A model generated the notes under the pieces. That model did no database searches. It worked only from the letters and a program-made list of their open reading frames with translations, and was not told where the DNA came from. DNA of 63,899 nt, counting the filler, from Folioceros fuciformis (taxonomy: Eukaryota), in NCBI GenBank assembly GCA_049999805.1. It is 5 parts of 5 records of this genome, joined end to end, with 100 filler letters (N's around TTAATTAATTAA, not from the genome) between each part and the next. Parts side by side here need not be neighbours in the genome. Positions count along the whole stretch, not along the records: positions 20,786 to 52,039 come from JBNGIO010006333.1; 4 more parts are not named here. One strand, 5' to 3'. Shown one piece after another: positions 17,258 through 61,812 of the stretch (the stretch's first letter is position 1; every line of letters starts with the position of its first letter). The position numbers and the translations under genes are program-made.

Positions 17258-18213
17258 ACTAAACCCTAAACCCGGCGGTGTGTGGTCATGTTATGCGAGC
17301 ATCCCTAAACCCTAAACCCCTGTTCTAGAGGATCTATTTGCCGTCCTTCGCAAGCGATGTCTGGATTAAGGAGACACGGTCATCATGGACGCCCTACTTA
17401 TGTCGTAACGGAAAAGATCACTTATGCAAATCTTCGGGAGAGAGAAGGGAGCTCCATTTGAAATTTGCACATTCCATTGTTCTCCCGCCAGCCAGTCTCA
17501 TCGTGTATTACTATGTATGTATCTCATCGTGTATTACTATGTATGTATATACAATACCCGTGGTATGCTGCACAATATTGCGTGGTCCCGCAACGCTCAC
17601 CGTCCCGCACCAGCGCCGTGGGGAATGGGTCACCCGGCATGCGGGCATGGCCAGGCACCTCGAGACTCGGGACTCGTGCGCTCATTACTTTCACCGATAG
17701 CGCCTGCGGTCACTCTTTATGAAGGGATACAACCCTAACTATTAAATAAATGGCAAGTAATGAATCTCTAATAAATTAACAGAGTAGATATTCCATGCAG
17801 AATGTCATTTGGGAAGCGGGCCGTAGGTAAACATTGTCCATGCACCATGGGCTGACAAGTGACATAATGGCGCCTGGGTATGTTATTACCTGAGAGGTGG
17901 TGACGACACGTTTGCCGGGCTGGGGAGCTAGAACGGTCTCGGCCGTTTAATGCTGACGTCTCCCCGCCCTGACCTCCTAGTAGTAGCCGCAGCAGGAGGA
18001 GTTTGTCAGCGGTTTACTGATATGTGCCATTCCTTGAGTTCCTAACGGCAGGACTAGTTAAATTTGTCAGCCGTAGGCCCCTATACTGTCCTTAAGAGCC
18101 TGTTCAATGCCGACGGTGATGGACGATCAAACACACCAGTCTACTCCGCAAGCTGCTGCCCGGAAAGGTAAGATGCTCGCAGAACAAGACGTTGTGCTGT
18201 CGCAGAAAATGTG

Positions 18214-20509
18214 TTACTTCGGTAGGCTCTGCAACTTTCCGGTACATCCCTCTGACACGCCTGGAGTAATTCTAGACTTGACTAGCTTCTCGAACTCCAG
18301 CTCGCTGAGACGAATTAGATTCTTAGCCGAGTCAAATGTTGTGAGTCGAATGCTGCAGCCACACACACTCGAAATCATTTCTCAAACAGGGCGCGAAGGA
18401 ATGGAGAACTCGCATCGCCTCGACACGTACCAGTTGTTAGGTAGATTTTTCAAGGCATTTGGGACAAATCCCCTATACAAGCCACCAATACCGTCCCTCT
18501 TCACTATACCTGAAACGTGTCACCACAAAAGCTCAAGCGCTGCCTGCTGTCGCTGGCAAAGACGAAAGCCGTTAAGGTTCGAGGACACGCACCAGGTATG
18601 GCATCAAGGACGCCTGAAAATGGTGAACCCTTCATTTGCATCTGTCTCCGCACAGTATCTAATGGGTAACAGATTGTTGTTGCAAGAGTTGCAGAGACAA
18701 AAGCAGTGGCAAATGCTGCAACCGGCTCCTTTCTAACATCTTCTGGAAGCGATTTCTTGATCCTGTGAAGGACAGGAGGTTTGCAGTTAAGCCATCCGTC
18801 TTGAGTGTTGCAAAGAGAAGCCTACAAAAAGACTGTCCAAACATGGGGGAAGCTTACAGGTCAAATATGCAGAAGTTCAGAGCTATGTAAGGAGCTATTC
18901 CAAGAAGAGATGGCCCCAAACCTCTGTAGAACGATAACAGCCCCTCTTCTTTGGCCATCAGTATTGCAACCTGCAGAATATAAGGCCTGCTCAGCTCATC
19001 CAAAAGTCAACAACAGGACCAACAAACGCCGTCAAAACGTAACTGCATACCTGCGTCATTGTTTTTGTTCCCGGATCCACAGCCATACGAAATCGCAGGG
19101 TATCCAAGGGATATGTCACCTGCTTATCAAAACCAGTGCAAGAGATCAAACAACCATAGACCAGTATGCAGGAAACTCCATAGGTTTCATTGTCGAGGGA
19201 TACCGACCAGGGTCGAAGTCATGCCCGCGCAAGCTCCAGCTGCTAATCGGCCAAGCACAGACAACTCTGTACCGTTCCCTTTGAAAACCTTCTGCGGAAT
19301 GACCATGAATCAGAATGTGAATGTTGGCTCCCTTTGGAATCTTTCACAGCCTGATGTATTCCATGAAGTGAACGTGTTTAGTACGTGCAGGTCAGGAGAC
19401 AACCTTGTAGACTTCATATGAGAAAAGTTGCACAGCACTGTATGGCACTATCCTAATAACCTGCACACACGCAAGGCGCATCCTTACAGACAGGTCCAAG
19501 AAGCGCTACATTAAATCAACACATTCAAAACAATCTGATCACCCACCTGGGGAAGATTGCCTTTCCAGTATCCTCGTACTCCCTCCTCTGCTCCGATCTT
19601 CATTACAGCCTGCCAAGGATTTAACTCTCATGAGAAAAACGATGCCCAGGAAGAACAAGGGAGCTCCTTGGCTTGCTAGGGTTTCTGATGCACAGTCACC
19701 TCAAAAAGCGGAATGCCACCCTTGGCCCCCATCTTAGCTCCACCAACCTGCAGTTAGACTTGCATCAGCACTCACCACTAAAGTCAGCAAGACACAGAGC
19801 TCCAGGTCGAACTGAACCACAAGGCAGACTCATTCACCTGCATGAGAATTTTGACTCTGTCAAGCGGAGCGGTCAGAGACTTGGCAACAGCCCCAGCAAA
19901 TGCCCCCGCAGCGAATAACAGAAAATCCTTCCGGGCCCAGCACACACCCAGCAGCGGACGCTTGAGGACCTCAGCTACAGTAGGAGGTCGCTGCACACTG
20001 CTACTTTCCTCTTCCTTCTCCACCTTCTCCACCTTTTCCGCTTCTCGGCGGGTTTCTTTCTGCGAGTCGGCTGGCTGAAGCAATCTCCTGCTCGCCGCCC
20101 ACTCAACCTGCGGCAGAGCAGAGGAACTGGACACAAGCCGCACTCCACGAACTAGTCCACTGGATCTGCGCCAGGCCCTACATTCCCTGCCCTTGCGAGC
20201 TCCACAACTTCCCCTTCCTTCTAGCCACTGAGAGCAATTCTGAACTAAATTTGCGTTGGTGGCGAGTCCAGATAAATCCACATCACCCCTCCAACTGCAA
20301 GATGCCAGACCTTCTTGAAGCTCAAATCCTGTCCGCACGGCAAATGGCAACGTCAACGATTGGAACAACCCTTCCAAAGCATTAGCACCGTCCCATTCCG
20401 CATGCTTCAGATCCCTTCCACCAGCCAAGACCCGGCGGGACCCCCCCTCTGCAAGTTCAGAATTAGTGTTTCCATCGTTGCCTCTGATCGGATGTGAGGA
20501 AGCTGCCAT
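18214..20509 (-). CDS. TAAC: Mitochondrial-carrier-family thylakoid/envelope ADP,ATP carrier (multi-exon, long N-terminal extension)
   Basis: Exons read FAAGAFAGAVAKSLTAPLDRVKILMQ, AVMKIGAEEGVRGYWKGNLPQ, ... IRLTTFDSAKNLI..PK*. ATG at 20509, stop at 18214; splice sites checked are GT-AG. Confidence 0.88.
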
Positions 20510-20685
20510 GGAGCGGCTTCGGTTGCAGATGAGACGCTTCACATTAAGGTGTGATTCTCCCTTTCGAACTTGCTGCTTTCATTCAGTGGTCAGTCTCCCA
20601 AGGAAAACAACGAAGCACCTCAACGGATCCAACTGTGGACCGGGTTGATGAGCCCACTTAGCAGACAGTTGGGTCCTACACACGT

Positions 20686-25308: not shown

Positions 25309-27088
25309 TCACTGCTCCAGAATGGAAGACGCTGCAGTGGGCAACTCCTCGGTGCTTCTTTCCAGTACCACCTCGTTGTTGGGCGAAGCACCATCCACCA
25401 CTGCACTTGCTCGTTTCTGTTTCTTGCCCCTCCCCAGCCAACCAGTTATGGTGGGATGAGTTGCTAACTGGATAACGACATTGCGGGCCACCTCGATGGC
25501 CTGACGAGTTGATTCTGCAGCACCTAGGACAGCGGGCTTCACCACGGCTACAGGATATCGTGCTTGTTCTTGCAACATGGCTGTCATGCGGATAAGTGTT
25601 TTATCAGGAATGACTCCACAAACTCACCCACTACAAGTTGAGAACGAAGAGAACACACCGAAGGACTCAACAACGGGGCTGTAGAGAGCATACCAAAAGT
25701 CTGGGAAGCAGCAATCACACCCATACGGCGAATTCCAATTTCAGCAGCATGGACAGCTCTAGCTGAGCTTCGTACGCCGTCTGATATCTCATGACTGCAA
25801 GCCATCAGCAGACGCAGGTTTAATCACAGTTCACCTGACTGAGTGTGCACTCCTCCATCGTCCAATGCACACTAACTAGACAACCTGCTGGACAACACTA
25901 TCTGCGTCTGCAAAAGAGAAAGACACTTCTCAACTATTGTGAACTGGGCAGAGATATAGCTGACAAGGCTGAAGTTCAACCCATTGATCTGCCGCGGTCG
26001 GAACATGAGTATAAAAGTCTAGCAAGTTAATTACCTCAAGTCATTGAGTTCCAACGTCAAGTCACTGATTTCCATCCCAGAAAGCCTGATAGCTGCCATC
26101 GTTGGAGGTAACTCCTCACGAGCAACATCCGCTAGCTTCTCCATGGCAATAGCTGCCCGCCTCATTGACTGCAAGAGAGACACACGGCTGTTCTTGCATT
26201 TTGTACAAAACAGAACCTTCAATACAGGTCACAACAGCGAACAACTAATAGCAGCAGTGCTGATCAAGCACATGAGTACACAACCTGAAAAGCCTACGAA
26301 AACAGACTTACATTCAGAGTTGGAATTGCCGTGAACAGGAGAGCGGAGAGAGCACCCGTTGTCTGCACAACACAAAGTTACCACAAGATGAGCCCAAACG
26401 ATCAGGAGGAGTTATGGCGTCGTCTGGCATCCGAGTCCGTTGAAAAGGAAGCAGTCGTCGTACTCACTGTCAGGGTCACATCAAATCGGCACCAAAACAT
26501 GGATAAATGCTGGAAACACATGATGCACGACCAAGGGAACTGCAACCATGCACTCACACCTGTAACGCATCATACCGTGCAAGCGATGAAGCCAAGCAGA
26601 AAGAAGGCTTGATCAAGAGGCCCAAGTTGAGCAAATCGCAAGGTCGAGGGGACCACGGAAGGCACTGTTTCTGTTGATGTCCCATAAACAGGTGATTGCT
26701 GTTCGAATAATCTGTCGACCTTTACAGGAGTAACACTTCCAGATTCCTGACCTGGTTGCCTCACAAGAGGACTTTTCGGTGTGGCAGTTCCTCCAAGAAA
26801 TTTTCGGGGGCTAGCTTCGCTACGAGGGACAAAAATGCAGTAGCTTGGCCGTTTTGCCTTGGGCCATCGCTTGAACTCCACTTGTCCTCTCTTTCTTTGA
26901 GATCCTATTTCCCTTGTGAGCTGGCTAAACACTGGAACCAGTTGCGTATTACTCCTACGTGACTGAGCCTTCCTACCACATTGAAAAATCACCAGCACGG
27001 AGCTGCCTCCACCACAAGGAACGAACCCGTGCCGGTGCAGCTCACAGGGAGACGACGAGGAGAGAGGCTTAAGGTAGGATATCTGCAT
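25309..27088 (-). CDS. At1g08530/At5g09995-like membrane protein with probable plastid transit peptide (multi-exon)
   Basis: Exons DQAFFLLGFIACT / SMRRAAIAMEKLADVAREELPPTMAAIRLSGMEISDLTLELNDL / SHEISDGVRSSARAVHAAEIGIRRMG / AMLQEQARYPV. Last exon boundary uncertain. Confidence 0.75.
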
Positions 27089-28257
27089 GGTCACCTGCTG
27101 CCAGATCAAATCAGTCTCATGGTTCCCACTTCTATCGCGTTCCAGCTGTGCCGCCGCTCCCAACACTAAGCACAGTACACTAGAGCTACACGGACACCGC
27201 GGCCGCAATGCCTGCAGGCTCTCCCCAAATGCTAACCGTCACCGACCCCCTCAGACTGCCTCGTCCGGCACCAATCCCCCTCTCGGCTGCAAATCTGTAT
27301 CTTATCGGATGCGTCGTATTTCGATTCTTGAACAGACAAGCAATCAAGCACCAGTCCAGTCGCGCAGCTACAAGCAAGCCCCGGAGAAGTCGGCTTCTTC
27401 CCTCCACAATTCTCACAGAATTCCCCGCCCCTGGATAGCCATCTCCCAAGAGTGCATCCAAACCGCGGCCTCCTCAAATACCTATTTCTAACCAACCGAC
27501 AGGCCGTCCCTCGGTACAATGAACCAACGGCTCCCGCGCCACACAGCCGCGCACACCTCCCTTCCCGACCGCTTCCCAATCCACACCGGCTCCGAAAAAT
27601 TGAGGCAGCCGCAGGAGGCAAGGCTTCACGGAACAAGCACGGCGCGCGGGCAGCGATTCACGATCCGATCCGCCAACGCGTCGTGAATCCGCGCCTCCCT
27701 CTCCTTCCTAGTCATGCACATCCGTTTCCACAGTGGCCGGAGTCCCGCAATTGGTGATCGCCTGCTGGTGGCGCGCGGAAGATTCCACAGGCCGGGTACG
27801 TTTCCACCGTGACCAGCTTCCAGGGCACGGTAGGCATGGAAGGCGAGGCGGGCGCACTTTCTTGTTATCAAATGGCCTCAGCCATTTCCCACGCATTTGT
27901 GAGCGATAGCCTCTCCCCGCGGGCCGCCCCGCTCGTTTGAATAGCTTTGCTTATGCGCTTTGCTTTCGCAGAATTCAACCAATTTTGCGCACGGCAAGCC
28001 GGTTGACGCCGATTGCTCCCGGCACGCGTCATCCAATTCGGGTGCAGAATATGTGGTCTCCTTGCCAATACCCGACAAGCTCACGTCACTCGTCACACGC
28101 CACCCCATATGTGTTGACGTGTTTGCGAGCCGGGCCAAGTCATCATCCGATTCTGCTGCCAACTTGCTTCCCGGACACATACATACATACCATATATATA
28201 TAGGTATGTATGTATATTACTTTATTACTATATAAATATATATATCAATCAGCTGAC

Positions 28258-28680
28258 AAATATTGTCCAGACCAGAATGACCGAGCACACTGTCCAGACC
28301 CGAATGGGCACACTATCCAAACCTGAATGAGCGTGCATATTGTCTAGACTTCAATGAGCGGGCACACTATCCAAACTTGAATGAACGTGCACACTGTCCA
28401 AACCTGAATGAGCGTGCACATTGTCCAGACTTCAATAAGCGGGCACACTGTCCAAACCTGAATGAGCAGGCACACTATGCAGACCTAAATGAGCGGGCAT
28501 AATATGCAGACCTCAATGAGCGGGCATAGTGTCCAAACCGGAATGAGGGGGCACACTATGCAGACCTGAATGAGCGTGCACACTGTCTAGACCTTACACT
28601 ATGCAGACCTGAATGAGCGTGCACACTATCTAGACCCTAACGAGTAGGCACACTCTCCATACCTAAATTAGCGGGCACAT
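28258..28680. repeat. 27-bp minisatellite, about 15 copies (GCACACTGTCCAAACCTGAATGAGCGG)
   Basis: Units at 28308, 28335 and onward with period 27; reduced to about 2 copies in the downstream repeat (~34200-34250). Confidence 0.92.
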
Positions 28681-30001
28681 AGTGATTACCAGGGTGACCC
28701 TTTCAACACACTCACTCATTGCTGCACACCTACAATCTCTTTGACGACTCATAATCTCATACGCCTGAAAGGCTTTTTGTAATGCTAAAGTAACACGATG
28801 CCTTTGGCTCTTAGACACATTTGCCATGAATGAACCCGTTGATTCCTCAACACAAGAAAGACCGCTAACATCATTGTGGTGGCAAGGCTAGCTGGCATGC
28901 CAATTGTCCCTACTAGAAACTATGAAATTAGGCTCACACCTCTCTTACCCCAAGAGATAAATACACAAGCATGGGATGCCTTGCTCCATTGCTGGCTCAG
29001 ATCCCCTTGTCTCTACCTCACACAGCCATGACTCAACAGGTACTTGACCTTGCAATCTGTCTGGTAATGCTTCTTGTTGTTCTTACTAGCTTGGTGTCTT
29101 CTAGTTTGCAGCTAGCTTGGCACCTGCATCCACCTGACATCCAGAACTGGAAATCCAGGCTTATGATCCATGACAAGTGCTAATGAAGGCAAGGTGAAGG
29201 TCCAGCACACCACTAGAATATAGGCTAGTTTGTCACCAACTGCAAATCCACACTTGCACACATGGTGAGACTATGTCAAGCTAGATGATTTGGTTGCTTG
29301 TTTGATGGCATTGTTAAGGACTGATCTTGTCTTGTCAATCTCCCGAGCTGAACATTCGTTGACCTGCTGATTGGTTGCTAAGCACATTTACAAGTCCTTG
29401 GAAAAGGCTAATGACAAATCAAAGCCTAATGATTTGTATCAATTATACCATATACACACTTGTTGGTGTTGCTCAGCAGAAATCGACTAATCTTAATGTT
29501 TGTTCACTCCTCAGGATGACAACACCACATGGGCACCTAAGATGGTCAGACTTGTTTATCCAGGAAACTCCTCTGGAATCGTGCCCTCTCCTCCATCAAA
29601 GGTCAGGACTTTCATGACTTGGTCATTCACTTTAATCGAGAAACCACAAAGGATAGCAATGTGGATGGCAATGCCCCCCAATTATTGGACATATTAATTG
29701 TGGATGAATGGCTTAAGCTGTTTTCGGCCTACCTTAGCAAACTCATTGACGGGCTTGCCAAGCTTTGCACTATCCACGAGCTACTTCCCCAAATGATCAA
29801 GAACGATGAGCTTAATACCTTTGCTATAAAAAAACTTCGACCGGACATATCCAAAACACTTGGTGCTCATTACTCTACTTGTTCTGAACTGCCTACCAAT
29901 GATACCTTTGCAGATAGTAGCTTCAACCACCTGCTTATGGCTCGAACAGTAGCACAGTCCAGACAGCTGCAAGAGTTGTTGACCAGCACTAGACATGCAT
30001 A

Positions 30002-33000
30002 GACACATGAGTCTTAGACAACTCTTCAGCAACAATCCCCGGTTCCAATCATCCCTCCTCGGGATTTGGAAGTCAAACTTGCAAAGTGGGGACACAAGTC
30101 GTGGGTTTCATCGACTAATACTTTCCTTGCTCCCTTGAGTGTTCGTTTCTGGCAAATAGTGAGATTAGTGAGACTGACCTTGATCAAATTCATGCCTATG
30201 CCTTGAATGGTAAGCTTTCTCTTAGTACTAGCATCCAAATGGTTGAAGGGAAAAGCATCAACAAATTTGATGTTATTCCAGCTTGCCCCAACCACCAACC
30301 TAAAGCAACACACTGTAAGAAGGCCTTACTCACGGGCAACAAGCGGCTTGACAAACACCTACACTTGTTGCACCTTTGGAATTGGAATACACTGTTCTTG
30401 AAATGCCTCTATCAAGACATTGGCCTTAACAAACGGGAAGGCGTCGAAAAATGCGCTGTTAGTGTCCTCTAGTTCGATTAGGCAATTTGGTACATGATGA
30501 ACCACCTTGACATGTTTTTTCCTGAGCATGATATCTTATCTCTGCGCTGGAATGCCTTCTTGTTACTGCTTAACCTGCCAGCCAACAAAACAATAGTCAG
30601 AGCCCACATCGAGTTTATGTTCATTCGAAAGTGGATGCTCAAAGCAGCAAGGAAGATGGCCCAGAATCCTAAACAGGCTCTACTCCCTAAGCCGCCCGAC
30701 TCGGAAACTGCTAAATACATTGAGATGTTGCTGAAGCCTGTAGCATTCTTTGAGGAGGTAGCAAAACTAGAATTCCAGAAGGCCAATCTACCTCACCCCT
30801 CGTACAAAAAAACTCAGGATGCTTTTGGTGCCGAGACGATCCGTGTTTCTGGAAAACGTGGGAGAAACCAGCAAAATTTGACCCCGTACGGGCGTGGCCA
30901 CCATTTCTTCTCACCACGAGGTCAGCCTCCTCTTATCCCGTCCCTCTCCCGAGGAACCAATAGCCCCAACTCCATGGTCATGGTTGCTAGCTCTGGTGGC
31001 ACAAATGATGCGAACGCTTCTAGACAGCCCTCTGTCACATCTAGCCGTACTATTCATTGTTATGACGTGACATTTGGAGGACGAGATTTGTCAAACAAAT
31101 GGTAGATTTGAATTGGGCCTATGCTTCATGATATCCTGTGTTCTTGGGTAGATCTGGAGCTGGATGCAATTGAAGAATGTGGAGTTGTGGTAGATGTTTT
31201 AGGTTTATGATCACTTGGACCATGATTCCGACAGCGAGACGCACTTGGGTTTATCCACGTGATGTATTGCAATCGATTCCTTGAATGGATTTTGATTCAC
31301 AAATTATGCACCCACATCCTTGAGCAGTGCGGCCCAGTTGTGCTCGAAGGCTTTGGTAGGGTAGTGATCGGCTGGCGCTACCTCGGCAACCTCAAAAATT
31401 TGGTGTACAAGCCTAAGCAAGTGTTTACATGCTTCCCAGTTGCAGACAAAACGTTTATGTCTGTATGCCAGTGTATGCACTTGAAACGGTTTCAACATTT
31501 TCTGGATCTCGGCATGCTGGGCTCAAAACCCACCACAAGCCAAGACTAGTTGCATGTTCAAACAACGAATTGTTCCATTGTTCATTACAAGCAGCTACAC
31601 CAGGCACTAGAGAAGGGATTGAGCCACATTCCCTTTCGCCCTACTGCACTGCAACCTGTAGTTGAATCCATTCTAGATGGATTCCTGGCGCTCATCCAGA
31701 TTTTGCGCCGACTAGGCCATCTCTTACTTGACAACTGGATTTCAAGGACATGCAAAGCCCTTACGGACTTATGCAGGAGGCAACTGAAAGCAACTACTCA
31801 GAAACATCAGTTTCAACAAATTCACGAACAAGCTACTCACAATGATGCTTGTGCCCTTGATGAGCTTTCTTGGCTTCTAGAACACCTATATGTGGCGGGA
31901 CTGAACAAAGCGGCAAACACGGCTTGCTTCGTGTGCATAGCACACCTTCGCCACCAAGCGCTTATTCAACTCTCATGTCCTAATTTTGTCACAATGGATA
32001 TTGCACCTTCCGAGTTGGTTATGCAATTACAATTCGCAATTGATAGCCGACTACCTGAAGTGGCTATCAATCTAGAGTTGTAGCTCCCCTTTCTTATGGC
32101 TACATACAATCAACATAAAGGGAAGTAGCGATGGTTGACAAATGCCCGTGATTGTTGTTTTTCTGTCATTGCGGATCTTCTAACTGCTTTCTCTAACGCT
32201 ATCTTCTTACAGCCAAAAGACTAGGCTGCTAAGAAACAAGGGGCATACACATAGTTTTTGCAAGTTGACACATCTTTGTACTGGATTGCCCAATCTACAA
32301 TCAATGTTGCCCTTAACCTACCAGCAATAGCTACAAATATCTTCGTCGATGACATTGCACGCGGCTATGAGACTATCCCTACATAGGGAACGGATGCGCT
32401 ATCAACTGCCATCTAAGCATGTACCAAGATCTTCTTTTGCCAAGTCCAAGAGGGACATAAACTCGACCACAAGCTCTTTGAGAAGTTTGAACACAACCAG
32501 GTGAAATTCTCCACCACGGGTTGGGCTACTCATGCACCTAGACACTCGGCTACAGCTACTTGGACTGAGTTTACTATTGAGAGATTATTTGAGCTACACC
32601 TTTGGCTCATGAGCTCTTGCTTTGTATAGTTTGGTGACCAGGTATAGCATCAACACTTAGTAATCCCCATGGGATTCTCGTGTAGTATTGCTTGGTGCAA
32701 CTTGTACTTCTTCCACTACAAGGCTAATTTCATCCGACGCCTGTCCGTACTAGGATGTACGGATATCATGGCTTGTTTCACCCATGCCTGTAGGTACATG
32801 GATGATCTCCGCTGGTTTAACAGCAGCCCCACGTACGGATGACTGTCCCTTTTAGATTTACCCTCTGGACATCGTGGCAATTGAGCCTAATATTGGGGCT
32901 TTCACCATGGATAGTAAAGGACAGCAAGTGGGCACTAATGCTCATTTTCTGTCATTCCAATTCCACATCTAGAATACCAATACCAGACAGTACTCCTTCC

Positions 33001-33323
33001 AGAAGTTTGATAAACGCAAAGCTCTCCCGTTTAAGGTGGCACAATTCATCCATCTCAATTCTAACCGGGCTGTCTCACAGGTGTACAAGACCATCCTTTC
33101 CTAAGTGTTCATCCTCTGATATATTTGCAGCGAGACAAATGAAACTATGAGCGAGCTAATGGACTTGGTGTTCATGTTCACAGCCAATGGCTTTAAGAAA
33201 TGTGACTTGCTAGCAACTATACACAAATTTTTGGAGCGTACTACACTGCCCTCCTTCAATGTGCCTCAGGAAGACATTATAGGGCTCTTCAAGGAGGAAC
33301 TTTTGTGTGTCAACTCATTGTGA
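30002..33323 (+). pseudogene. PLE reverse transcriptase ORF remnant
   Basis: One frame from 30002 to ~32840 with scattered stops: CQC..HVQTTNCSIV..LHQALEKGLSH; HLYVAGLNKAANTACFVC (DKA/DKG-like motif); LPFLMATYNQHK..RWL; IFVDDIARGYETIP; IPMGFSCS..CNLYFFHY; RYMDD (YMDD at 32795-32806). After a frameshift: KFDKRKALPF..NSNR..YICS..NGF. Confidence 0.85.
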
Positions 33324-35743
33324 GTTGTTGTTTACCAAAATCCCTTGAGCTACGCTCTGGTTTTGAAGTTTTGTCCTTGATGGTGCGGCATAGCTCTTCT
33401 TGCCAAGGGATTGCGAAGTGCATTCATCCTTATTCGGGAGAACGTTTCAGTTACACCGGTATGGTGGTGGGTCATACATACATACCAAAGCATCATGTAC
33501 ACTTGGTTGCCAACTAGCGGGCTGGGGCATGGCTTCAATTTTTTAAGGCCGTGTATTGATGGAATCATCGCTTCAAATTTTTTAAGGCTGTGCGTTGATG
33601 GAATTGACAGCTCCTTAGATGCTAAGAGGCTGTTGACTTACTTTGCCACCAAGTTATAGCCAGTAAGAAGTAAGAAGAACTATGTCGGGTGATGCATTCC
33701 TTGTGCAACACCCTTGTTTTTGGGATCTGTACCTCCATGATAGCTTGTCTTAACTTTTCCTCTTCTTATACCTAGAACAGCTTGGTGGTCCTTCACTCTA
33801 AGCTTGTATCCCCTCCCCCTCCTATTGATCCCCTAACCCTCTCCTTAGTTGACTGCCTCCTACCTTGGTGCCTTTGGGAAGACTGCTTACTACTACATGG
33901 CTCAGCAAGTGAGTTTGCCTGCATATTCCTTTGAAATTTATTCTACAAATTACGGGTATGTATGTATATTATTTTATTACTATAAAATAAATACATATTA
34001 CTATACAATAAATACATATCATCGAGTTGACAAATATTGTTTAGACTAGAATGAGTGGGCATATTCCTTTGAAATTTATTCTACACATTATCGTTTGGTT
34101 GGAGGAGTTGCTCTTGTCGTACATACATACATACCATAGGTATGTACGTATGTTACTTTATTACTATACAATAAATACATATAATGAACTGACAAATACT
34201 GTCTAGACCTATTGGGCACACTCTCCATACTTGAATGAGTGGGCACGCAATGATTAATAGGGTGACTTTTTCAGGTACTTACTCATTCATTGGTGCACGC
34301 CTACAATGTCTTTGATGACTCATAATCTCATATCATATGGCTAAAAGGCTTTTTGTAATGCTAAACTAACAAGATGCCTTTGGCCCTTAGACATTGATTG
34401 AAAGCCCTTACACGTTGATTGAAAGCCCACCTACATCATTGTAGTGGCAAGGCTAGCCGGCATACCAATTGTCCCTACTAGAAACCACGAAATTAGGCTC
34501 ACACCTCTCTTACCCCCCAACATATAAATACACAAGCATGGAATGCCTTGCTCCATTGCTGGCTCAGATCCCCTTGTCTCTACCTCATACTACCATGACT
34601 CAATAGGTACTTGACCTAGCAGTCTGTCTGCTAATGCTTCTTGTTGTTCTTACTCGTTGGGCATCTTCTAGTTTGCAGCTAGCTTGGCACCTAGATCCAC
34701 CTGACATCCACAACTAGAAATCTAGGCTTATGATCCCTGACAGGTGCTGATGAAGGCAAGGTGAAGGTCCAGCACACCACTAGAATGTAGGCTAGTTTGT
34801 CACCAGCTGCAACGAGCTGAACATTTCGTTGAGCTGCTGATTGATTGCTAAACACATTTGCAAGTCCTTGGAAAAGGCTAATGACAAATCTTGATGATTT
34901 GCATAAATGATAACATGTACACACACGTGTACTCATGTCCTCGCGCCATCGCGCTACATACATATTATTTAGAATGTCATTTCTTCTCCTTCGCAATAAG
35001 AAACGGTAATCATTGGGCTTGAGGATGTTCGTCCTTAGTCCCAAATCATGATTTATTTCCCCCCTACGGATAGATAGATGATTTCTCATCTTATTTTTCT
35101 AAAATAAATAAAAACTACAACGATATTTTGATAATTGACGAACTTGAACCGCCCTCGTGGAACTCGTTGGAGATAGGGAGGCACTTGCTCTAGCTCTGGG
35201 ACGCGGTCGTATGAAAAATCAATAGTGTAGTCAAGAATTTTGATAAAATACTCGTCAAGAATTTTTATGTCTTTGTACTCGAAAAACTGATGCCTCGCCC
35301 GGCGGTTTTCCCTGCGGGTTGTCTTGAGGTGGAGGAGGCCTTGTGCTTGTTGTGGCGGGGAGGTTGGAGACGGAGACCCTAGCGGAGCACCGTGGCGAGG
35401 AAAGTAGCCAGCTAGGTAGGGGCATAACTTTGGGAAAAGGTATCGTGTTCCTGTGATGTTATGTCAATGTAAAGGTAGAGAGTGGAGTTAAGAAATGTGT
35501 ACATTCGTTAGTGACCTGAAGTGGGGTTTTTTCTTTTCAGTCCGTGTCTCCCTGTCGCGGGGTCGGAGTGAGGGCCAACAGCTTTGATGATCGCCGGGGG
35601 AAATGCTGGAGGGCAGGGCAGAGCAGAGCAGAGGCTTGGTTGCCGCGGCGCTGAGATTTGAATCACGGGCTGCGGGAGGTGCATCTCTGGCGGCGGTGGC
35701 TAGCAAGTGAAGGGGTCGTGCTGGTGGTCGGGCGCATCGCACA

Positions 35744-37967
35744 ATGAGGATATTGCCTTTGTTGCCCCTGGTGGCGGTGGCCACGGTGGTGCTCTGCTTG
35801 CTGGCGTTCCAGGTGGATGGATCTATTCACGTGTATAAGGATGCCAAGTTCGTCAAAATGCCCAAGGCTGGGAACACGTACTTGTTCCACGGCGGCAGCG
35901 AGGGTCTTTACAGATCCAAGCCGAGGGAAGGGTCATCTAACGGCGTATCCAACGGCAAGTCTTACATAAGGTGCTTCCTAACTGTGCTGTGTTGTGGTGC
36001 ACTAGGCTGACATTGGTCTCTGAGGTCGCCCCTTCTTGTTGCGTGGTTTGGTAGATCGGTGTGGCCGGGTCCGGTGGAAAGGACCCTGGCAGGAGCAGGG
36101 GATTGGGCTCGTTCGTTTTGCGGAAGCTGCATGTTTGGGAGGCCGAGGCAGCTGTCCCGTGCTCGCAACGGTTATAGCTGCTGACTCACTTCGCGTTGTG
36201 TATGCTCAGATTGCGGAGTGGCCTGGAGTTCAGGAGAAGGCCGGAGATGGCTGGGACGTACAGTGCGACCGAATTCTCGACAGGGCTTGTAGAAGCAGTT
36301 ATTTTTGAGGTCGGGGACATGGATAAGATCGGGGATACCTTCGAGGTGGGCCAGCGCTCGCTTTGCTGTACTCCTGATTTGGCCAAGGAGGGGACCTGCC
36401 AGGTTGGATCCGTGATCGTGCGTCCGTCAGAGGGCTGGCCGCATGTTTCTCAGATTCACTTCGGCTCCAATAAGAATTCGACTAAATTAATGTCTGAGGA
36501 ATACATCGAGATCCCCAGGACGGGTTTCTACACCCTGTACTTCGTTGCGTGTGACAGCAAGCTGGATGGACTGGTCATTTCGGGCCAGACAGATTGGAAG
36601 AATCCTAATGGATATCTGCCTGGGAGGATGTCACCATTTCTCACCTTCTATGGTTTCATGTCAGTGGCATATGTGCTCCTGGGAGTCGTCTGGTTTTTCC
36701 AGTATGTGCGCTTCTGGAAGGATATCTTGCAGCTCCAGAATTGTATCACAGTAGTCATTGCTCTAGGCATGTGCGAGATGTCCATGTGGTACTTCGAGTA
36801 TGTCAACTTCAACATAACTGGATACCGGCCTGTTGGTATCACCTTGTGGGCTGTAACCCTCGGGGCTGTCAAAAAGACTGTTTCTCGTCTGCTCATTTTA
36901 GTGGTCTCCATGGGCTATGGGGTTGTGCGACCAACTCTTGGTGGGCTGACCTCCAAGGTCATCTTGTTGGGAGGCACATACTTTTTAGCTGCAGAGTCTT
37001 TGGATGTCGTGGAGAACGTTGGAACTATTAACGACCTGTCTGGGAAGGCTAGGCTGTTTTTAGTACTTCCTGTTGCTGTCCTGGATGCATTTTTCATTCT
37101 ATGGATCTTCACATCACTCTCAAGGACTTTGGAAAAGCTTCAGGTTTGATAGTATCACCAAGCGAGTGCACTTTGCCACAGATTGTTCAATTGTACATGA
37201 CGACACATGATGTAATTATGTCCGCGTTGCTGGGCTTGCCGTTTACATTGTTTGTCCTGTTGCAGGCGAGGAGGAGGTATGCCAAGCTTGAGTTGTATCG
37301 GAAATTCACAAATTCGCTTGCTGTTGCTGTAGTGATTGCAGTAGCCTGGATAGGGTATGAGGTAAAGATCGTCTCTTTTGTTGTCTGCTGCAATTTCCTT
37401 CCTCTGGTTCATGACTGAAAGATTTGGTGTGCTGCTGTGCAGTTGTACTTCAAAGCTACGGATCCCTACAGCCAGCGCTGGAGAAGTGCCTGGATAATCT
37501 CCGCGTTTTGGAATATTTTGACGTTTGTGCTTCTCGGTATTATCTGTGCTCTCTGGGCACCTTCTCAGAATGCAACCAGGTAAGTATTGCCCTTGCTCTC
37601 TGTGTCCCCTCTAGCTAGGGCTGAATGAAGTATTTGCAAGTACCCCTTCACTGAAAGTGTGCATCTTCTGGCTGACTCGAATGTTCTTTTACCAGTGTTT
37701 TCGAAAGCTCTGGTTGTGCTCGGACTCGCTGACAGGATGGGATGGTCGTGTGGTTGGTGGTTTCTGTGCTTCCCTAGGTATGCCTTCTCAGAGGATGTGG
37801 CTGAGGACTTCGATGAGGAGGAAGCTGTGGCATTGGCACCTACGAACTCATCGAAGGTTGCTGAGGCTGATAACTTCGGAGCCAATGGAGAGAAGAAGGA
37901 GAAAAAATCCGTCAACACTGACGTATTCAGTCTTGAGGATGATCCCGAGGAGGATAAGAGAGAGTAG
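35744..37967 (+). CDS. Lung seven-transmembrane receptor family protein (TMEM87/GPR107-like), multi-exon
   Basis: Signal peptide plus SIHVY; CCTPDLAKEGTC; WKNPNGYLPG; LQNCITVVIALGMCEM; LILVVSMGYGVVRPTLGG; KLELYRKFTNSL; LWAPSQN..RYAFS; acidic tail ending EEDKRE*. Confidence 0.93.
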
Positions 37968-40676: not shown

Positions 40677-42556
40677 TCAGGAGGTCGGGAGTAGACGCCA
40701 CGATTTATACGAGGACTCTGCCTCTCCTGCACGCATTACTCACGCATGTGTAAGAATTGAATCGAGGAGAGGAAAAAGTAAGGTCATTTCCTGACTGTTA
40801 CCTTTGAAAGAAGGGGACCATTGTGCAGGAACATTGAGGTCCGATTCAACTGCTGCTTTTGCAGCAGCTATGCCGCAGCTCACAGCTTCTAGGACGTGAC
40901 CAGGGCTTTCCGTGAGGACAGAGAGAGCACCGGCCACCAAGCAGTCCCCAGCTCCACTCAAGCTGACAACAGAAGCTGGCAGAGCAGGGAAATGGTACAA
41001 GAAAACTTGTCCTGCACGCCATCCCGGAGGAAGGCTGCGGAGAGGGCGCAAAGTGCAGAGAACTGCACCGTGATGACCCAAGGTTAAGACAACATACTGC
41101 ACGCCTTCAGTCAGCACAGCTCTGATGGCGTGCTGCAGTTCATACATAACAGACTCTACCCTACTGTGAAAAGAAAGCACTGAGTCGCGAGGATGCTTTT
41201 GCGCATCAGAACTGAGAGCTTCAGCCATGGCCACTAGTTCAACCTCATTGGGAGACACGTATGTCATCTGCCAAGCGGTCGACCATGGGTCAGCTACAAA
41301 ACCCAACAAAGGCTCCACCTTCCCAGGGCAACAACGAGGACCAATTCCCAAGCTCCGGTGGGAACTCACATATTTGAGAAGCTTTGCAGCCCGAGTGCAT
41401 TTTGCCACTGACACCGGTTCAAACCAGACAGGAACATTTGCCTCGTACGCCACTGCACAGCCCAAGCTCAAGATATCAGCAGGATGAGCAGTGCATGCAC
41501 AAATGATGAACACAAGTGGTCCTTCAAGGTCTTACTCCTGCAAGTGACTTCCAGAGTCTCTGGAAAAAGATTGGCATCTACCATCACTATCGAAGCAGAC
41601 TTTATGTCCCCAGAAAACTTTCGTATCCATGCTGGAGTGAGGTGTTTCTCCTGAAGCCGAGCACCATGAGCAACGCTTGAGCAGAACAGCCATCAGGCAA
41701 AGTTGAAATTCATGCTCTGCAAGCTCTGAAGGAAGGAACTTACAACTGTCTGCACGTCTGCCACAGCCGCTTGTAATTCCCCTTGCCTGTCAAACACGGC
41801 AGACACAACGGGTGTCGAAGCTCCTGCATATCTGCAAATTCCTGCACCACCCTTCCCCCCCCCCCACCCCCCACCCCATTTCAGAGATATGCCACTCCCT
41901 GCGTTCCAAACCCACTCTGCAGAGAGAGAGACTTCAGTGCACGTGCATTACCGTCCACCGACAGCCCAAGTGACCTCCAATGAGCGACAAGCTCATCCCC
42001 TGCACCCAACTCCCATCAACACACACACATTCTGCACCCAGGGTTACAAGAACGAGTAAAACCCTCCCCTGTCTGACCGCACACCTGCCATGTCCTCCCC
42101 AACCACACTGATAAGAAGGGGCTTAGAATTCAGCCGAGCCATACACTCCGCAACGTTCCTCCCAACTCCACCCCGGTGATACAGCACCTGCGCAAGGGCA
42201 CCGTCCAGTCAGCCTGCCCTGCAGCTCTCCCTTGACAACAGTGAAAAATCTCTTGCATGCTCACCCGGCCAGGTGTTGTGGTGCCAGGTAACAGCTGGCC
42301 AGAACCAGGCTTAGCGTGTATGTCCAGAACCATAGCCCCGACCACCACGGGAATCCTTGGTTCCAGCTGCAGCCCATCCGCGCCCTCGATGGCCTGCAGT
42401 TGCAGCTGTCACTCTCATTGTCATAGGGATGTCGCTCGTCATAGACATGCATAAATTCAGCAGGCCCCGAGGGCTCCCTCTCACCGTGCACTTCGAGGGT
42501 GAAGCTGACGTGCAAAGGTGGCGTGCGATCACGCTTACCCGCTTGCTACTGCCCAT
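40677..42556 (-). CDS. PUKI: PfkB-family pseudouridine kinase (multi-exon)
   Basis: PVVVGAMVLDIHAKP..GTTTPG/..GGVGRNVAEC; MVDANL; VWFEPVSVAK; SPNEVEL; VLTLGHHG; SLSGAGDCLVAG (PfkB signature). Confidence 0.85.
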
Positions 42557-44979: not shown

Positions 44980-46130
44980 AGGACATGTCTCCTGGTCCTG
45001 CTCCTGTGGAAGCAACTGTCCTGCGCCGCCGGGCCAACCATGCCCCCGCTAGCGTTGCTCCCCGTTCCCACCGCCAGGCAGCTCAGGTTCCGGCGCCGGG
45101 AGATGGCCATGTTCCTGCACTTCGGGATGAACACCTTCACGGACTCCGAGGTCGGGAGCGGGGAGGAGGACCCACGGACCTTCAATCCTCCTCCCGGCGT
45201 GGACCCGGACACAGTGGGTGCGCACCGCCAAGAACGCTGGCTTCCACATACCATTGGTGATCTTTACGGCCAAACACCACGACGGCTTCTGCCTCTGGCC
45301 CATGGGCTTCTCCAACCACTCGGTGCAGCACTCCCCGTGGGAGGCGGGACGCGGCGGCCTGGTACGCCTGGTGGCAGACGCGGCCAGGTGCCACGGTCTC
45401 GCACTAGGGCTCTACCTCTCCCCCGGGACCGGCACGACACGAGAGGAGCTAAGCGGAGCCACGGGCCGATCAATGGTCCATGATCAACCGCTCCAGCCTC
45501 GCCATCGGAGCGGCGGACGGGGAATACCTCATCGTCGGGGACGAAGACGGCACCGACTGGGCTCTCTCGAGCGCAATGTGTCCCTCAGGCTCGGCTGGTT
45601 CTGGCAAGTCGGCCGAAGCCCCAAGCCGCTCCCCGCCCTTCTCTCCATGTACTACAAGTCGGTGGGACGGAACTGCGGGCTGGTCCTCAACGTGCCTCCC
45701 AACAAGCACGGGGTCTTGCGCAAGGACGACGTCCGTGCCGTCCAGGAGCTGGGATCCGCCGTCCGCTCCATCTTCGCCTCCAATCTTGCTGCTTCAGTTA
45801 ACGCCACCGCCTACATCGCGAGGCCGGGGCTTCAATTCCAGTCCGAGCAGGTGCTGACGGAGGACCTCGCAACCTACTGGGCTGCGGACGTGCCCTCCTC
45901 TGCTGGATCTGTACTTGAGCTCCAGTTGGCCTTGGCCAAGTTCTTCAATGTCGCCGTGATCCAAGAGCCCGTGGCTTTGGGCCAGCCCGTGAAGCGCTTC
46001 CGCATCCGGGTTAGGGCTGATGTGAGCGACGCCAGTTGGACCACGCCGTCTGCTACCAGAGCCTGGTGATGTTCCCGGTCTTGGAAGCAAAGCTCGTCCA
46101 GCTAACTATCGAGGAAGCCCGGGGCTGCCC
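44980..46130 (+). pseudogene. GH29 alpha-L-fucosidase (AtFUC1-like) pseudogene
   Basis: PVPTARQL..EMAMFLHFGMNTFTDSE; TAKHHDGFCLWP; GLYLSP/DRH; VSLRLGWFW; YYKSVGRNCGLVLNVPPN. Frameshifts near 45211, 45425 and 45570; catalytic core missing. Confidence 0.88.
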
Positions 46131-61712: not shown

Positions 61713-61812
61713 NNNNNNNNNNNNNNNNNNNNNNNNNNNNNNNNNNNNNNNNNNNNTTAATTAATTAANNNNNNNNNNNNNNNNNNNNNNNNNNNNNNNN
61801 NNNNNNNNNNNN

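What the first reader, a model, noticed from the sequence alone, without database searches (positions are those of the whole stretch)
28177..34930. Penelope-like retroelement with Naiad/Chlamys-type RT, long unknown N-terminus and no visible endonuclease
Seen: about 950 codons in one frame (30002-~32840), broken only by stops. They carry CxC..HVxT, NKAANT..VC, LP..HK..R, D....YETIP, IPMG..NLY and RYMDD motifs; a thumb-like FDKR..LPF..SN follows a frameshift. Long direct repeats flank the unit. Known: these motifs typify Penelope-like elements, which are patchy in land plants (conifer Dryads, Selaginella); Naiad/Chlamys elements place GIY-YIG N-terminal to RT. I find no GIY-YIG on either side, only a GLNKREG at ~30422. 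More than 450 codons upstream of the CxC motif are unassignable, and further ORF remnants reach back to ~28830. Inference: a poorly described, possibly endonuclease-less or differently equipped plant PLE lineage, inserted between two divergently transcribed host genes.
Basis: partly seen in the sequence, partly recalled or inferred. Interest (0 to 1): 0.75.

Follow-up and report, generated by a model that had tools for sequence, protein, structure and literature searches.

The report
Dead endonuclease-less Penelope-like retrotransposon (PLE-X type)
This is one old, broken copy of a rare plant retrotransposon whose reverse transcriptase resembles telomerase and which has no DNA-cutting enzyme; the type was already described in 2021, so it is a new member of a known kind.

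Summary
Window 28177-34926 is a single decayed retroelement. Direct repeats (28177-29459 and 34121-34924/6, about 85% identical) flank two coding regions. The first is a 500-codon region (29586-31102). The second is a reverse transcriptase (31232-33320). Together they carry 17 in-frame stops and 2 frameshifts.

Intact relatives give tblastn E-values down to 3e-114. An AlphaFold model of a relative matches telomerase (TERT) in PDB ranks 1-14. No GIY-YIG or other nuclease domain appears in six frames, in 150 representatives or in 120 profile hits.

The "unassignable" N-terminus is assignable. It is the N-terminal extension with the CxC-X(n)-C / WFDHAxWY motif that Craig et al. 2021 (PMC8557442) describe for EN-less "PLE-X" families of Chara and Selaginella, with BlastP hits noted in mosses. 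The window RT aligns to a Selaginella PLE-X1 gene model (32% identity, E=7e-65) and to a Ceratodon (moss) record (42%).

Differences from published PLE-X:
- no hammerhead ribozyme found
- a 13-residue motif spacer
- the extension ends at a stop shared with its closest relative, so it may be a separate ORF1
- an interstitial location, with both repeat copies ending in ACACAC

Verdict: new member of a known kind, inactive, moderate-to-low interest.

The parts
28177..29459 (+). Upstream pseudo-LTR: a 5'-truncated partial tandem copy of the element's 3' end
   Evidence: blastn against 34121-34924 in three collinear pieces of 75-85% identity; alignment A1 at 87% mean column identity; repeat families D3-D11
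28177..28217 (+). Palindromic hairpin (ACAT)3ACC-AT-rich-GGT(ATGT)n at the 5' edge of the repeat; the counterpart is at 34121-34153
   Evidence: RNA fold of the spans holding it (28171-28225 and 34115-34160): -17.0 and -16.9 kcal/mol, z -3.2 and -3.0. It is the source of the spurious miRNA-model hits
28262..28684 (+). 27-nt tandem array, about 15 units, expanded in the left repeat only
   Evidence: TRF rows: period 27, 12.4 copies at 28264-28594 plus 3.1 copies at 28596-28679; families D1 and D2. The right copy keeps only the last unit or so
29246..29343 (+). About 98 bp present in the left repeat and absent from the right one
   Evidence: Gap between the blastn pieces and in alignment A1, columns 617-714
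29460..29585 (+). Start of the full-length unit and 5' leader, before coding homology begins
   Evidence: Repeat homology ends at 29458/29459 (...TATACACAC). The first tblastn match starts at 29586
29586..30155 (+). N-terminal extension / ORF1, first part (frame 3), 2 in-frame stops
   Evidence: tblastn of P0093, P0123 and P0124 residues about 1-222; stop count
30164..31102 (+). N-terminal extension / ORF1, second part (frame 2), 2 in-frame stops. It ends at TAG 31103-31105, where the closest relative P0021 also ends
   Evidence: tblastn P0021: 52% identity, E=3.6e-84, residues 5-252 of 252; phmmer 54% identity; alignment A2
30398..30526 (+). PLE-X signature motif CxC-X13-C ... (W)FDxAIWYMMNHL..FFP. 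The second Cys is Tyr in this copy, and two stops lie inside the motif
   Evidence: Alignment A2/A4: nearly invariant W294 N295 C303 C305 C313 W319 W325. By eye, the same motif is in PLE-X1/2_cBra, PLE-X1_sMoe and PLE-X1_sTam in the supplement of PMC8557442. Coordinates
31103..31231 (+). Spacer between the extension and the RT: 43 codons in the same frame with 4 stops. It could be an intron, a readthrough or reinitiation zone, or decay
   Evidence: Craig et al. infer an intron at this junction in Selaginella
31232..32827 (+). Reverse transcriptase: N-terminal PLE-specific part plus fingers and palm (frame 2), 9 in-frame stops
   Evidence: tblastn P0003 E=3e-114 and P0004 E=5e-110; 32% identity, E=7e-65 to the Selaginella PLE-X1 gene model P0265; 42% to Ceratodon P0257
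31463..31492 (+). CxC motif (VCQC), diagnostic of Naiad/Chlamys
   Evidence: invariant C108 and C110 in alignment A3; described in PMC8557442
31898..31936 (+). DKA-type motif, here GLNKAANTACFVC (D changed to N in this copy)
   Evidence: invariant D252 and K253, nearly invariant A254 in relatives
32342..32809 (+). RT motif A (FVDDIARGYETIP, 32342-32380), a 106-residue start-to-start A-to-B interval (IFD-like), motif B (VIPMGFSCS, 32660-32707), motif C (RYMDD, 32789-32809)
   Evidence: invariant D405, Q502, G505, D552 and D553 in A3
32829..33320 (+). RT thumb and C-terminal domain after a +1 frameshift (frame 3), 4 in-frame stops. Relatives end here, with no room for a C-terminal endonuclease
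   Evidence: tblastn second pieces for P0003, P0004, P0019, P0020 and P0027
33321..34120 (+). Unique part of the 3' untranslated region, with local duplications (33921-34061 versus 34059-34199)
   Evidence: Families D8, D11 and D12
34121..34926 (+). Downstream repeat, which is the 3' end of the full-length unit; it terminates in ...GTACACACAC

Best explanation
Window 28177-34926 is one ancient, inactivated insertion of an endonuclease-lacking Penelope-like retrotransposon of the PLE-X type. PLE-X is the EN-less subgroup that Craig et al. 2021 place inside the Chlamys clade.

Anatomy (shown). A 5'-truncated partial copy of the element's 3' end (28177-29459) sits head-to-tail in front of a full-length unit (29460-34926). 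This gives pseudo-LTRs. The unit encodes an extension/ORF1 of about 500 residues with a Cys-rich CxC-X13-C/WFDH motif. It then encodes a reverse transcriptase of about 700 residues with the CxC and DKA motifs and a long fingers insertion. The RT has a telomerase-like fold and no nuclease domain.

How it most likely worked (inferred from the family, not shown here). Transcription starts in the upstream repeat. The extension and the RT are made either as one spliced protein or as two products. The RT copies its own RNA by target-primed reverse transcription, using a DNA 3'-OH that it does not cut itself. Priming may be helped by pairing between a CA-rich RNA 3' end and CA/TG-like DNA, since both repeat copies end in ACACAC. 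Template switching onto a second RNA, or an abortive first copy, creates the partial tandem. Its 5' edge falls at a stable hairpin.

The copy is dead. It has 17 in-frame stops in coding sequence and 2 frameshifts. A conserved Cys is changed to Tyr and the DKA Asp is changed to Asn. The repeats differ by about 15%.
For: RT identity and family:
- phmmer against 1.84 billion representatives gave 512 hits at E<=1e-3, the best at 9e-97.
- 16 word-index hits of about 720 aa show 29-42% identity.
- 10 of the 11 of those I scanned carry a weak, sub-threshold RVT_1 match.
- The AF2 model of relative P0004 has pLDDT 93.5 and pTM 0.90. Its Foldseek PDB ranks 1-14 are all TERT (E 1.5e-9 to 7e-6). Group II intron RT, DRT2, Prp8 and viral RdRps follow. 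No LINE or LTR RT appears in the ranks listed.

No endonuclease:
- 0 of 6 reading frames.
- 0 of 150 listed representatives (35, 115).
- 0 of 120 listed profile hits by precomputed Pfam.
- Relatives end right after the thumb.

PLE-X membership:
- P0265 (SELMODRAFT_425932) begins with the same residues as the PLE-X1_sMoe protein printed in the supplement.
- P0265 aligns to the window RT at 32% identity over 533 residues, E=7e-65.
- The extension motif matches by eye the four PLE-X proteins printed in the supplement.
- The fused proteins P0039 and P0022 carry extension and RT in the same order as the window.
- In a 37-row ML tree, the window RT joins a clade containing the Ceratodon record (SH-aLRT 84). 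That group sits next to the Selaginella plus Chara-like clade (96) within a node of 87.

Other:
- pLTRs. Hairpin at the truncation point.
- CA-type terminus; File S1 lists (CA)n for PLE-X1_cBra.
Against: - No hammerhead ribozyme was found, whereas Craig et al. report canonical HHRs in three of the four PLE-X families (PLE-X1_cBra, PLE-X1_sMoe and PLE-X1_sTam; none is listed for PLE-X2_cBra). Rfam scans at E<=1 over 27000-36000 and at E<=10 over both repeats gave none. My own descriptor search, allowing one core mismatch, gave 0 hits, against 0-1 hits per shuffle in 20 shuffles. Decay could hide it.
- The motif spacer is 13 residues here and in P0021, outside the published X1-8.
- The tree has no named Coprina, Athena, Naiad, EN+ Chlamys or TERT rows. 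Placement inside Chlamys therefore rests on the paper, not on my own phylogeny. The window's own node has only 84% SH-aLRT, and its end branch is long (1.31).
- The window's own RT gets no Pfam hit. The profile-to-PDB sequence search was not significant (DRT2 0.05, TERT 0.4).
- No target-site duplication is evident at the flanks.
- The transposition mechanism is entirely inferred. Only one copy could be examined.
Confidence: 0.85

Rival explanations
1. It is a Coprina/Athena-type EN-less PLE, the telomere-attaching kind, stranded at an interstitial site.
For: It lacks an endonuclease. Feature-based Atlas neighbours of the RT include Rotifera clusters, and the top neighbour of the extension is a Basidiomycota cluster. 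These are leads only; recognition for the extension was 1369, below the 2300 mark. I could not place named Coprina or Athena sequences in a tree.
Against: There are no telomeric repeats in or next to the element: 0 CCCTAAA or TTTAGGG within 28000-35100, and only single CCCTAA hexamers. No HHR was found. The CxC motif and the extension motif are described as Naiad/Chlamys and PLE-X features. The RT shows direct similarity to the Selaginella PLE-X1 gene model. Genes lie on at least the right side, so the locus is not a chromosome end within this window.
Confidence: 0.06
2. It is an ordinary EN+ Chlamys/Naiad element whose N-terminal GIY-YIG domain has decayed or been deleted in this one copy.
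For: The copy is heavily mutated. Pfam's GIY-YIG model can miss divergent PLE nucleases.
Against: The sequence upstream of the CxC motif is not anonymous debris. It is homologous, with tblastn E down to 4e-84, to a conserved protein of about 500 aa. That protein's model is mostly helical, with no match to any PDB or BFVD fold, and has no Pfam family. Intact RT relatives start about 100 residues before the CxC motif and have no nuclease.
Confidence: 0.03
3. It is an LTR-type or DIRS-type retrotransposon, or a LARD-like derivative, because it is framed by long direct repeats.
For: Direct repeats of 0.8-1.3 kb frame a 5.5-kb body.
Against: There is no protease, RNase H, integrase, tyrosine recombinase or gag domain in six frames. 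The RT fold is closest to TERT, not to LTR-element RTs. The left repeat begins at a point that is internal to the right-hand 3' region, and repeat homology ends exactly at the unit's 3' terminus, as expected for a partial tandem.
Confidence: 0.02
4. It is a pseudogene of a domesticated host RT gene (rvt-like, or a TERT paralogue) rather than a mobile element.
For: It is a single copy in this window and has a TERT-like fold.
Against: It is flanked by a tandem partial copy of its own 3' end. Hundreds of diverged relatives sit on short contigs of element size. The family is published as a transposon, with targeted rDNA insertions in Selaginella.
Confidence: 0.01

Closest known systems
PLE-X families (PLE-X1_cBra and PLE-X2_cBra of Chara braunii; PLE-X1_sMoe and PLE-X1_sTam of Selaginella), the EN-less subgroup of Chlamys PLEs (Craig, Yushenova, Rodriguez and Arkhipova 2021, PMC8557442; read: section 9, passages, supplementary File S1/S2 rows and printed protein text)
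   Same: No endonuclease. CxC motif before the RT. DKA-type motif. Long spacing between RT motifs A and B. An upstream extension carrying W-N..RPY..CxC..C..W(F/L)D..WY..N/H..(F/W)P. Size of 5.5 kb against 5.2-7.4 kb. Tandem repeats inside the element. A CA-type terminus against the (CA)n preference of PLE-X1_cBra. 32% identity (E=7e-65) to a Selaginella PLE-X1 gene model.
   Different: No hammerhead ribozyme detected. The spacer of the Cys motif is 13 residues, against 1-8. The extension ends at a stop shared with its closest relative P0021, so it may be a separate ORF1 in this lineage. The element is not in 28S rDNA. The RT branches with a moss-containing clade, not inside the Selaginella/Chara clade.
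Chlamys and Naiad N-terminal-EN+ PLEs (same paper)
   Same: CxC motif, DKA/DK motif, IFD-like insertion, pLTRs, internal tandem repeats, CA-type microsatellite association, and usually no HHR.
   Different: They carry an N-terminal GIY-YIG nuclease. This element and all relatives examined do not.
Athena and Coprina EN-less PLEs (Gladyshev and Arkhipova 2007; paper not held, known here only through the introduction of PMC8557442 and a review)
   Same: PLE RT without an endonuclease.
   Different: Those elements sit at telomeres and carry reverse-complement telomeric repeats next to an HHR. Here there are no telomeric repeats and no HHR, and the element sits in a gene-bearing interstitial context.
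Telomerase reverse transcriptase (TERT)
   Same: It is the best structural match of the family's RT model: ranks 1-14 in the PDB, E down to 1.5e-9.
   Different: TM-scores are only 0.3-0.4. The family has no TEN or TRBD-type N-terminus by sequence. It is multi-copy and flanked by its own repeats. Sequence-level similarity is not significant.

Membership tests
Penelope-like elements (general) | RT whose closest relatives are telomerase RTs rather than LINE or LTR RTs | tested here: met
   Foldseek PDB ranks 1-14 are all TERT, and no LINE or LTR RT appears in the listed ranks. This is fold similarity for relative P0004, not a phylogeny.
Penelope-like elements (general) | Pseudo-LTRs produced by partial tandem insertion | tested here: met
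   The left repeat 28177-29459 equals the last 0.8 kb of the unit (34121-34924) and abuts the unit's 5' end.
Penelope-like elements (general) | GIY-YIG endonuclease (EN+ clades only) | tested here: not met
   0 of 6 frames; 0 of 150 representatives; 0 of 120 profile hits.
Naiad/Chlamys clade | CxC motif upstream of the RT core | tested here: met
   VCQC at 31463-31474; both Cys invariant in 27 relatives.
Naiad/Chlamys clade | DKG motif modified to DKA/DK | tested here: met
   Relatives have invariant D-K and nearly invariant A. The window copy reads NKA at 31904-31912, a D-to-N change in a dead copy.
Naiad/Chlamys clade | Insertion-in-fingers domain between RT3(A) and RT4(B), longer than in canonical PLEs | tested here: inconclusive
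   106 residues from the start of motif A to the start of motif B in the window. The region aligns to the A-to-B' span of human TERT only at E=0.4. No canonical PLE was available for a length comparison.
Naiad/Chlamys clade | N-terminal GIY-YIG endonuclease | tested here: not met
   See above. The upstream region is a different, conserved protein.
PLE-X subgroup | N-terminal extension with a CxCX1-8C motif, joined to the RT across a presumed intron | tested here: met
   The motif region 30398-30526 aligns to relatives and, by eye, to the four published PLE-X proteins. Deviations: the spacer is 13 residues, and the second Cys is Tyr in this copy. The intron was not tested. The extension ends at a stop shared with P0021.
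PLE-X subgroup | Sequence relationship to a published PLE-X element | tested here: met
   32% identity over 533 residues, E=7e-65, to P0265, whose first residues equal those printed for PLE-X1_sMoe. It is the neighbouring clade in the tree.
PLE-X subgroup | Canonical hammerhead ribozyme | tested here: not met
   None in the Rfam scans or in my own descriptor searches. Decay of this copy cannot be excluded.
PLE-X subgroup | Targeted insertion (28S rDNA in Selaginella; (CA)n in Chara) | tested here: inconclusive
   The element is not in rDNA: no rRNA match in the Rfam scan of 27000-36000. Both repeat copies end in ACACAC, but one locus cannot show a preference.
Athena/Coprina | Reverse-complement telomeric repeats at the 3' end, and a telomeric location | tested here: not met
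   No telomeric heptamers in 28000-35100. A gene lies 0.8 kb downstream. The chromosomal position of the window is unknown.

The most novel reading that the evidence does not exclude
In this lineage, which includes a moss record, the PLE-X 'N-terminal extension' may be a free-standing ORF1 of about 500 residues. Its fold is mostly helical with a small Cys/His-bearing beta element and has no counterpart in the PDB or BFVD. It ends at a conserved stop and is co-encoded with a separately started RT. This protein, rather than a nuclease, would be what lets an endonuclease-less PLE insert at interstitial CA-type sites. It might do so by binding the target DNA or by capturing free 3'-OH ends.

Leads:
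- The stop is shared with P0021.
- Five pairs of RT and ORF1 database proteins report identical longest-contig lengths: 5703, 4148, 4437, 4402 and 4316 bp. This suggests that both are called as separate ORFs on the same element-sized contigs.
Probability: 0.15. Interest if true: 0.65.

Novelty: new member of a known kind. Interest (0 to 1): 0.3.

Why it matters
EN-less PLEs that insert away from telomeres are a real puzzle. Craig et al. state that it remains to be seen how PLE-X elements integrate without an identified endonuclease. This locus does not answer that, because the copy is dead.

It does add four things:
- The PLE-X architecture occurs interstitially, with pseudo-LTRs, in a plant-like genome. 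The window also holds LRR, glyoxal oxidase, GOST and Copia genes.
- The family is large in public data: 512 representative clusters at E<=1e-3. None of the 150 listed representatives or 120 listed profile hits carries a nuclease.
- The extension is a conserved protein with an unassigned fold.
- The RT models confidently as a telomerase-like enzyme.

For genome annotation, it explains a 6.7-kb stretch that standard domain scans leave blank.

Tried and rejected
- Pfam on the window's own read-through frames found nothing.
- Rfam hammerhead models found nothing at E<=1 or E<=10. The only hits were spurious miRNA, CRISPR-DR, RUF4 and lncRNA rows caused by the AT-rich palindrome.
- My own hammerhead regex and descriptor found only one CTGATGA (34747) with no helix II, and 0 descriptor hits.
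- Sequence-profile searches of the PDB were not significant for the RT. The extension gave 0 hits at E<=10.
- Fold search of the extension model (pLDDT 71.7, pTM 0.69) gave best E=0.4 in the PDB and 0.08 in BFVD, with TM about 0.1. No fold could be assigned.
- The Atlas rows for flexuous-virus coat proteins (0.86-0.89) were therefore not supported.
- A GT..AG intron (31102 to 31202) that would join the extension to the RT was checked by eye. It does not restore the RT frame in this copy, so I dropped it.
- GLNKREG as a GIY-YIG remnant was rejected.
- No telomeric repeat association was found.
- Another copy in the window was sought and not found.
- Gladyshev and Arkhipova 2007 and Lin et al. 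2016 are not held. Comparison with Coprina/Athena and with conifer EN(-) PLEs therefore rests on what other papers say.
No genomic copies of this family could be fetched.
- The printed PLE-X sequences in the supplement were compared by eye only and were not entered into any tool.

Full report
**Observation**

Reading frame 2 from 29999 to 32842 gives 948 codons interrupted by 18 stops but by no frameshift. The thumb-like FDKR..LPF..SNR follows in another frame. The unit is framed by direct repeats: 28177-29459 and 34121-34924. They match in three collinear blastn pieces of 75-85% identity, with 87% mean column identity over the main block. Both repeats begin with (ACAT)3, which occurs nowhere else in the window.

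The left repeat is longer for two reasons. A 27-nt unit is amplified to about 15 copies at 28262-28684. About 98 bp at 29246-29343 are missing from the right copy.

**Is it real coding sequence?**

The window's own broken frames get no Pfam hit, but database searches leave no doubt.
- phmmer against 1.84 billion representatives returned 512 proteins at E<=1e-3, with the best at 9e-97.
- The word-index search returned 16 proteins, mostly of about 720 aa and 29-42% identical to the RT part.
- Of the 11 of those that I scanned, 10 have a weak RVT_1 match, all below Pfam's cut-off.

tblastn of intact relatives back onto the window defines the anatomy.
- The upstream protein maps to 29586-30155 (frame 3) and 30164-31102 (frame 2).
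- The RT maps to 31232-32827 (frame 2) and 32829-33320 (frame 3).
- These segments hold 2, 2, 9 and 4 in-frame stops, and there are two frameshifts.
- No second copy exists in the window.

**What kind of RT**

An AlphaFold model of relative P0004, built with 27 aligned relatives, is confident (pLDDT 93.5, pTM 0.90). Its 14 best PDB matches are all telomerase RTs (E 1.5e-9 to 7e-6). Group II intron RT, DRT2, Prp8 and viral RdRps follow. No LINE or LTR-element RT appears among the ranks listed. Sequence-profile search of the PDB was not significant.

A phylogeny with named PLE clades and TERT could not be run, because no reference sequences are available as stored records.

**No endonuclease**

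No GIY-YIG or other nuclease, integrase or RNase H domain appears in the following.
- Any of six read-through frames of 28000-35100 at E<=1.
- Any of the 150 listed representatives: 35 at E<=0.01 and 115 at E<=0.001. The kinase, WD40, HSP70 and RNase H rows there belong to long chimeric gene models.
- The precomputed Pfam column of the 120 listed profile hits.

Intact relatives end shortly after the thumb and begin about 100 residues before the CxC motif.

**The 'unknown N-terminus'**

Residues about 50-370 of the read-through have their own set of relatives. P0021 is 54% identical, and about 20 further listed hits cover this region, many of them about 500 aa long. A profile of 19 of them finds 134 more. 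None has a Pfam family.

Their most conserved block reads LWN..RPYLRCxC-x(7-13)-C..G...WFDHAxWYMINHL..FFP. The window has this block at 30398-30526, with a Cys-to-Tyr change and two stops.

The AF2 model of P0093 is moderately confident (pLDDT 71.7, pTM 0.69). It is largely helical with a few short strands around the Cys block. It matches nothing in the PDB (best E 0.4) or BFVD (best E 0.08).

**Literature**

Craig, Yushenova, Rodriguez and Arkhipova 2021 (PMC8557442) describe exactly this. I read section 9, passages elsewhere, and rows and printed proteins of the supplement. [quoted passage not shown] The proteins keep the CxC motif and lack the GIY-YIG endonuclease. [quoted passage not shown] They have canonical hammerheads, and they insert genome-wide (Chara, (CA)n for PLE-X1_cBra) or into 28S rDNA (Selaginella).

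The supplement's printed PLE-X proteins show, by eye, the same extension block and the same RT motifs (MCQC, GLNHI, DKAANTPTFVC) as the window.

The profile search brought in three named records.
- Two are from Selaginella moellendorffii. One of them, P0265 (SELMODRAFT_425932), starts with the same residues as the printed PLE-X1_sMoe protein. It aligns to the window RT at 32% identity over 533 residues, E=7e-65.
- The third is from the moss Ceratodon purpureus and is 42% identical to the window RT over 243 residues.

I built a quick ML tree of the window RT plus 36 relatives that I picked by hand from about 290 hits. It has no named outgroups and is midpoint-rooted for drawing only. The window joins, at SH-aLRT 84, a 15-row clade that contains the Ceratodon record. 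The Selaginella plus Chara-like plus P0022 clade (96) is its neighbour inside a node of 87. The window's end branch is long (1.31), as expected for a pseudogene.

**Where it departs from published PLE-X**

1. No hammerhead ribozyme was found by Rfam at permissive thresholds or by my own descriptor search allowing one core mismatch (0 hits, against 0-1 hits per shuffle in 20 shuffles). Decay may be the reason.
2. The Cys-motif spacer is 13 residues.
3. The extension ends at TAG 31103-31105, exactly where P0021 ends. The RT follows in the same frame after 43 codons with 4 stops. Five RT/extension pairs of database proteins report identical longest-contig lengths. This hints at two ORFs on one element-sized contig. 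It is a lead only and was not verified.
4. The element is interstitial. A GOST-family gene starts about 0.8 kb downstream.

**Mechanism**

Shown here are the architecture, the telomerase-like RT fold of the family, the absence of a nuclease, the partial-tandem repeats and the decay.

The rest is inferred from what is established for PLEs (PMC8557442). Transcription is initiated in the upstream repeat. Target-primed reverse transcription then uses a 3'-OH that the element does not make itself.

Both repeat copies end in ACACAC (29453-29458 and 34918-34926). This fits the CA-type microsatellite association reported for many Chlamys and for PLE-X1_cBra, and it suggests annealing of a CA-rich RNA 3' end to the target.

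The 5' edge of the upstream partial copy coincides with a stable palindromic hairpin (-17 kcal/mol, z about -3). That is a plausible place for reverse transcription to stop. The (ACAT)3 is therefore part of the element, not the target.

If the two repeats were made in one event, their divergence of about 15% marks an old insertion.

**Verdict**

The claim of a poorly described or differently equipped lineage is only partly right, because the type has been published since 2021. This copy is a dead, divergent member of it, probably of the moss-type branch that the paper only mentions through BlastP hits. The open question of how these elements integrate remains open. The conserved extension protein with no assignable fold is the part worth further work.

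**Not checked**

- Cluster membership and accessions could not be read (one search was unavailable).
- Gladyshev and Arkhipova 2007 and Lin et al. 2016 are not held.
- The left-hand host gene was not verified.

Noticed in passing
window 57585-61760 (+) and 62036-63898 (-): An uninterrupted 1391-codon Copia-type polyprotein ORF (gag, protease-like barrel, integrase, RVT_2) looks potentially intact. Next to it, on the opposite strand, is a second Copia element split into two ORFs that runs off the window end.
   Followed up: partly
window 28262-28684: A 27-nt tandem array (consensus TGTCCAGACCTGAATGAGCGGGCACAC) is expanded to about 15 units in the left pseudo-LTR only. The right copy keeps about one unit, so the array grew or shrank after the two copies formed.
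   Followed up: partly
window 28177-28217 and 34121-34153: A near-perfect palindrome marks the 5' edge of both repeat copies. It produces spurious hits to several miRNA covariance models, all far below their thresholds.
   Followed up: yes
window 17303-17316: (CCCTAAA)2, the only tandem plant-type telomere-like repeat in the window. It is far from the element and is probably a short interstitial, telobox-like motif.
   Followed up: no
window 4455-6050 (-), 19784-20578 (-), 36178-37149 (+), 40740-41531 (-), 45131-46069 (+), 47237-48982 (+): Host gene fragments with Pfam matches: LRR protein, mitochondrial carrier, GOST seven-transmembrane protein, PfkB kinase, alpha-L-fucosidase, and a 581-codon single-exon glyoxal oxidase. 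The set looks plant-like. The organism was not determined.
   Followed up: partly
database proteins P0004/P0280, P0007/P0123, P0013/P0316, P0208/P0272, P0197/P0303: RT and extension/ORF1 proteins report identical longest-contig lengths (5703, 4148, 4437, 4402 and 4316 bp). This suggests that intact two-ORF elements exist on single short contigs. The contigs could not be fetched.
   Followed up: no
database proteins P0280 and P0210: Two family members carry source names that are evidently mis-assigned: 'cellobiose-specific phosphotransferase system component IIA' and 'uncharacterized protein YuzB'. This is a reminder that automatic names on this family are unreliable.
   Followed up: no
window 33921-34199: Local duplications inside the 3' untranslated region, just before and overlapping the start of the right repeat (33921-33952 versus 34059-34090 at 97%; 33955-34046 versus 34139-34208 at 88-91%). 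The region around the truncation point is itself partly tandem.
   Followed up: partly
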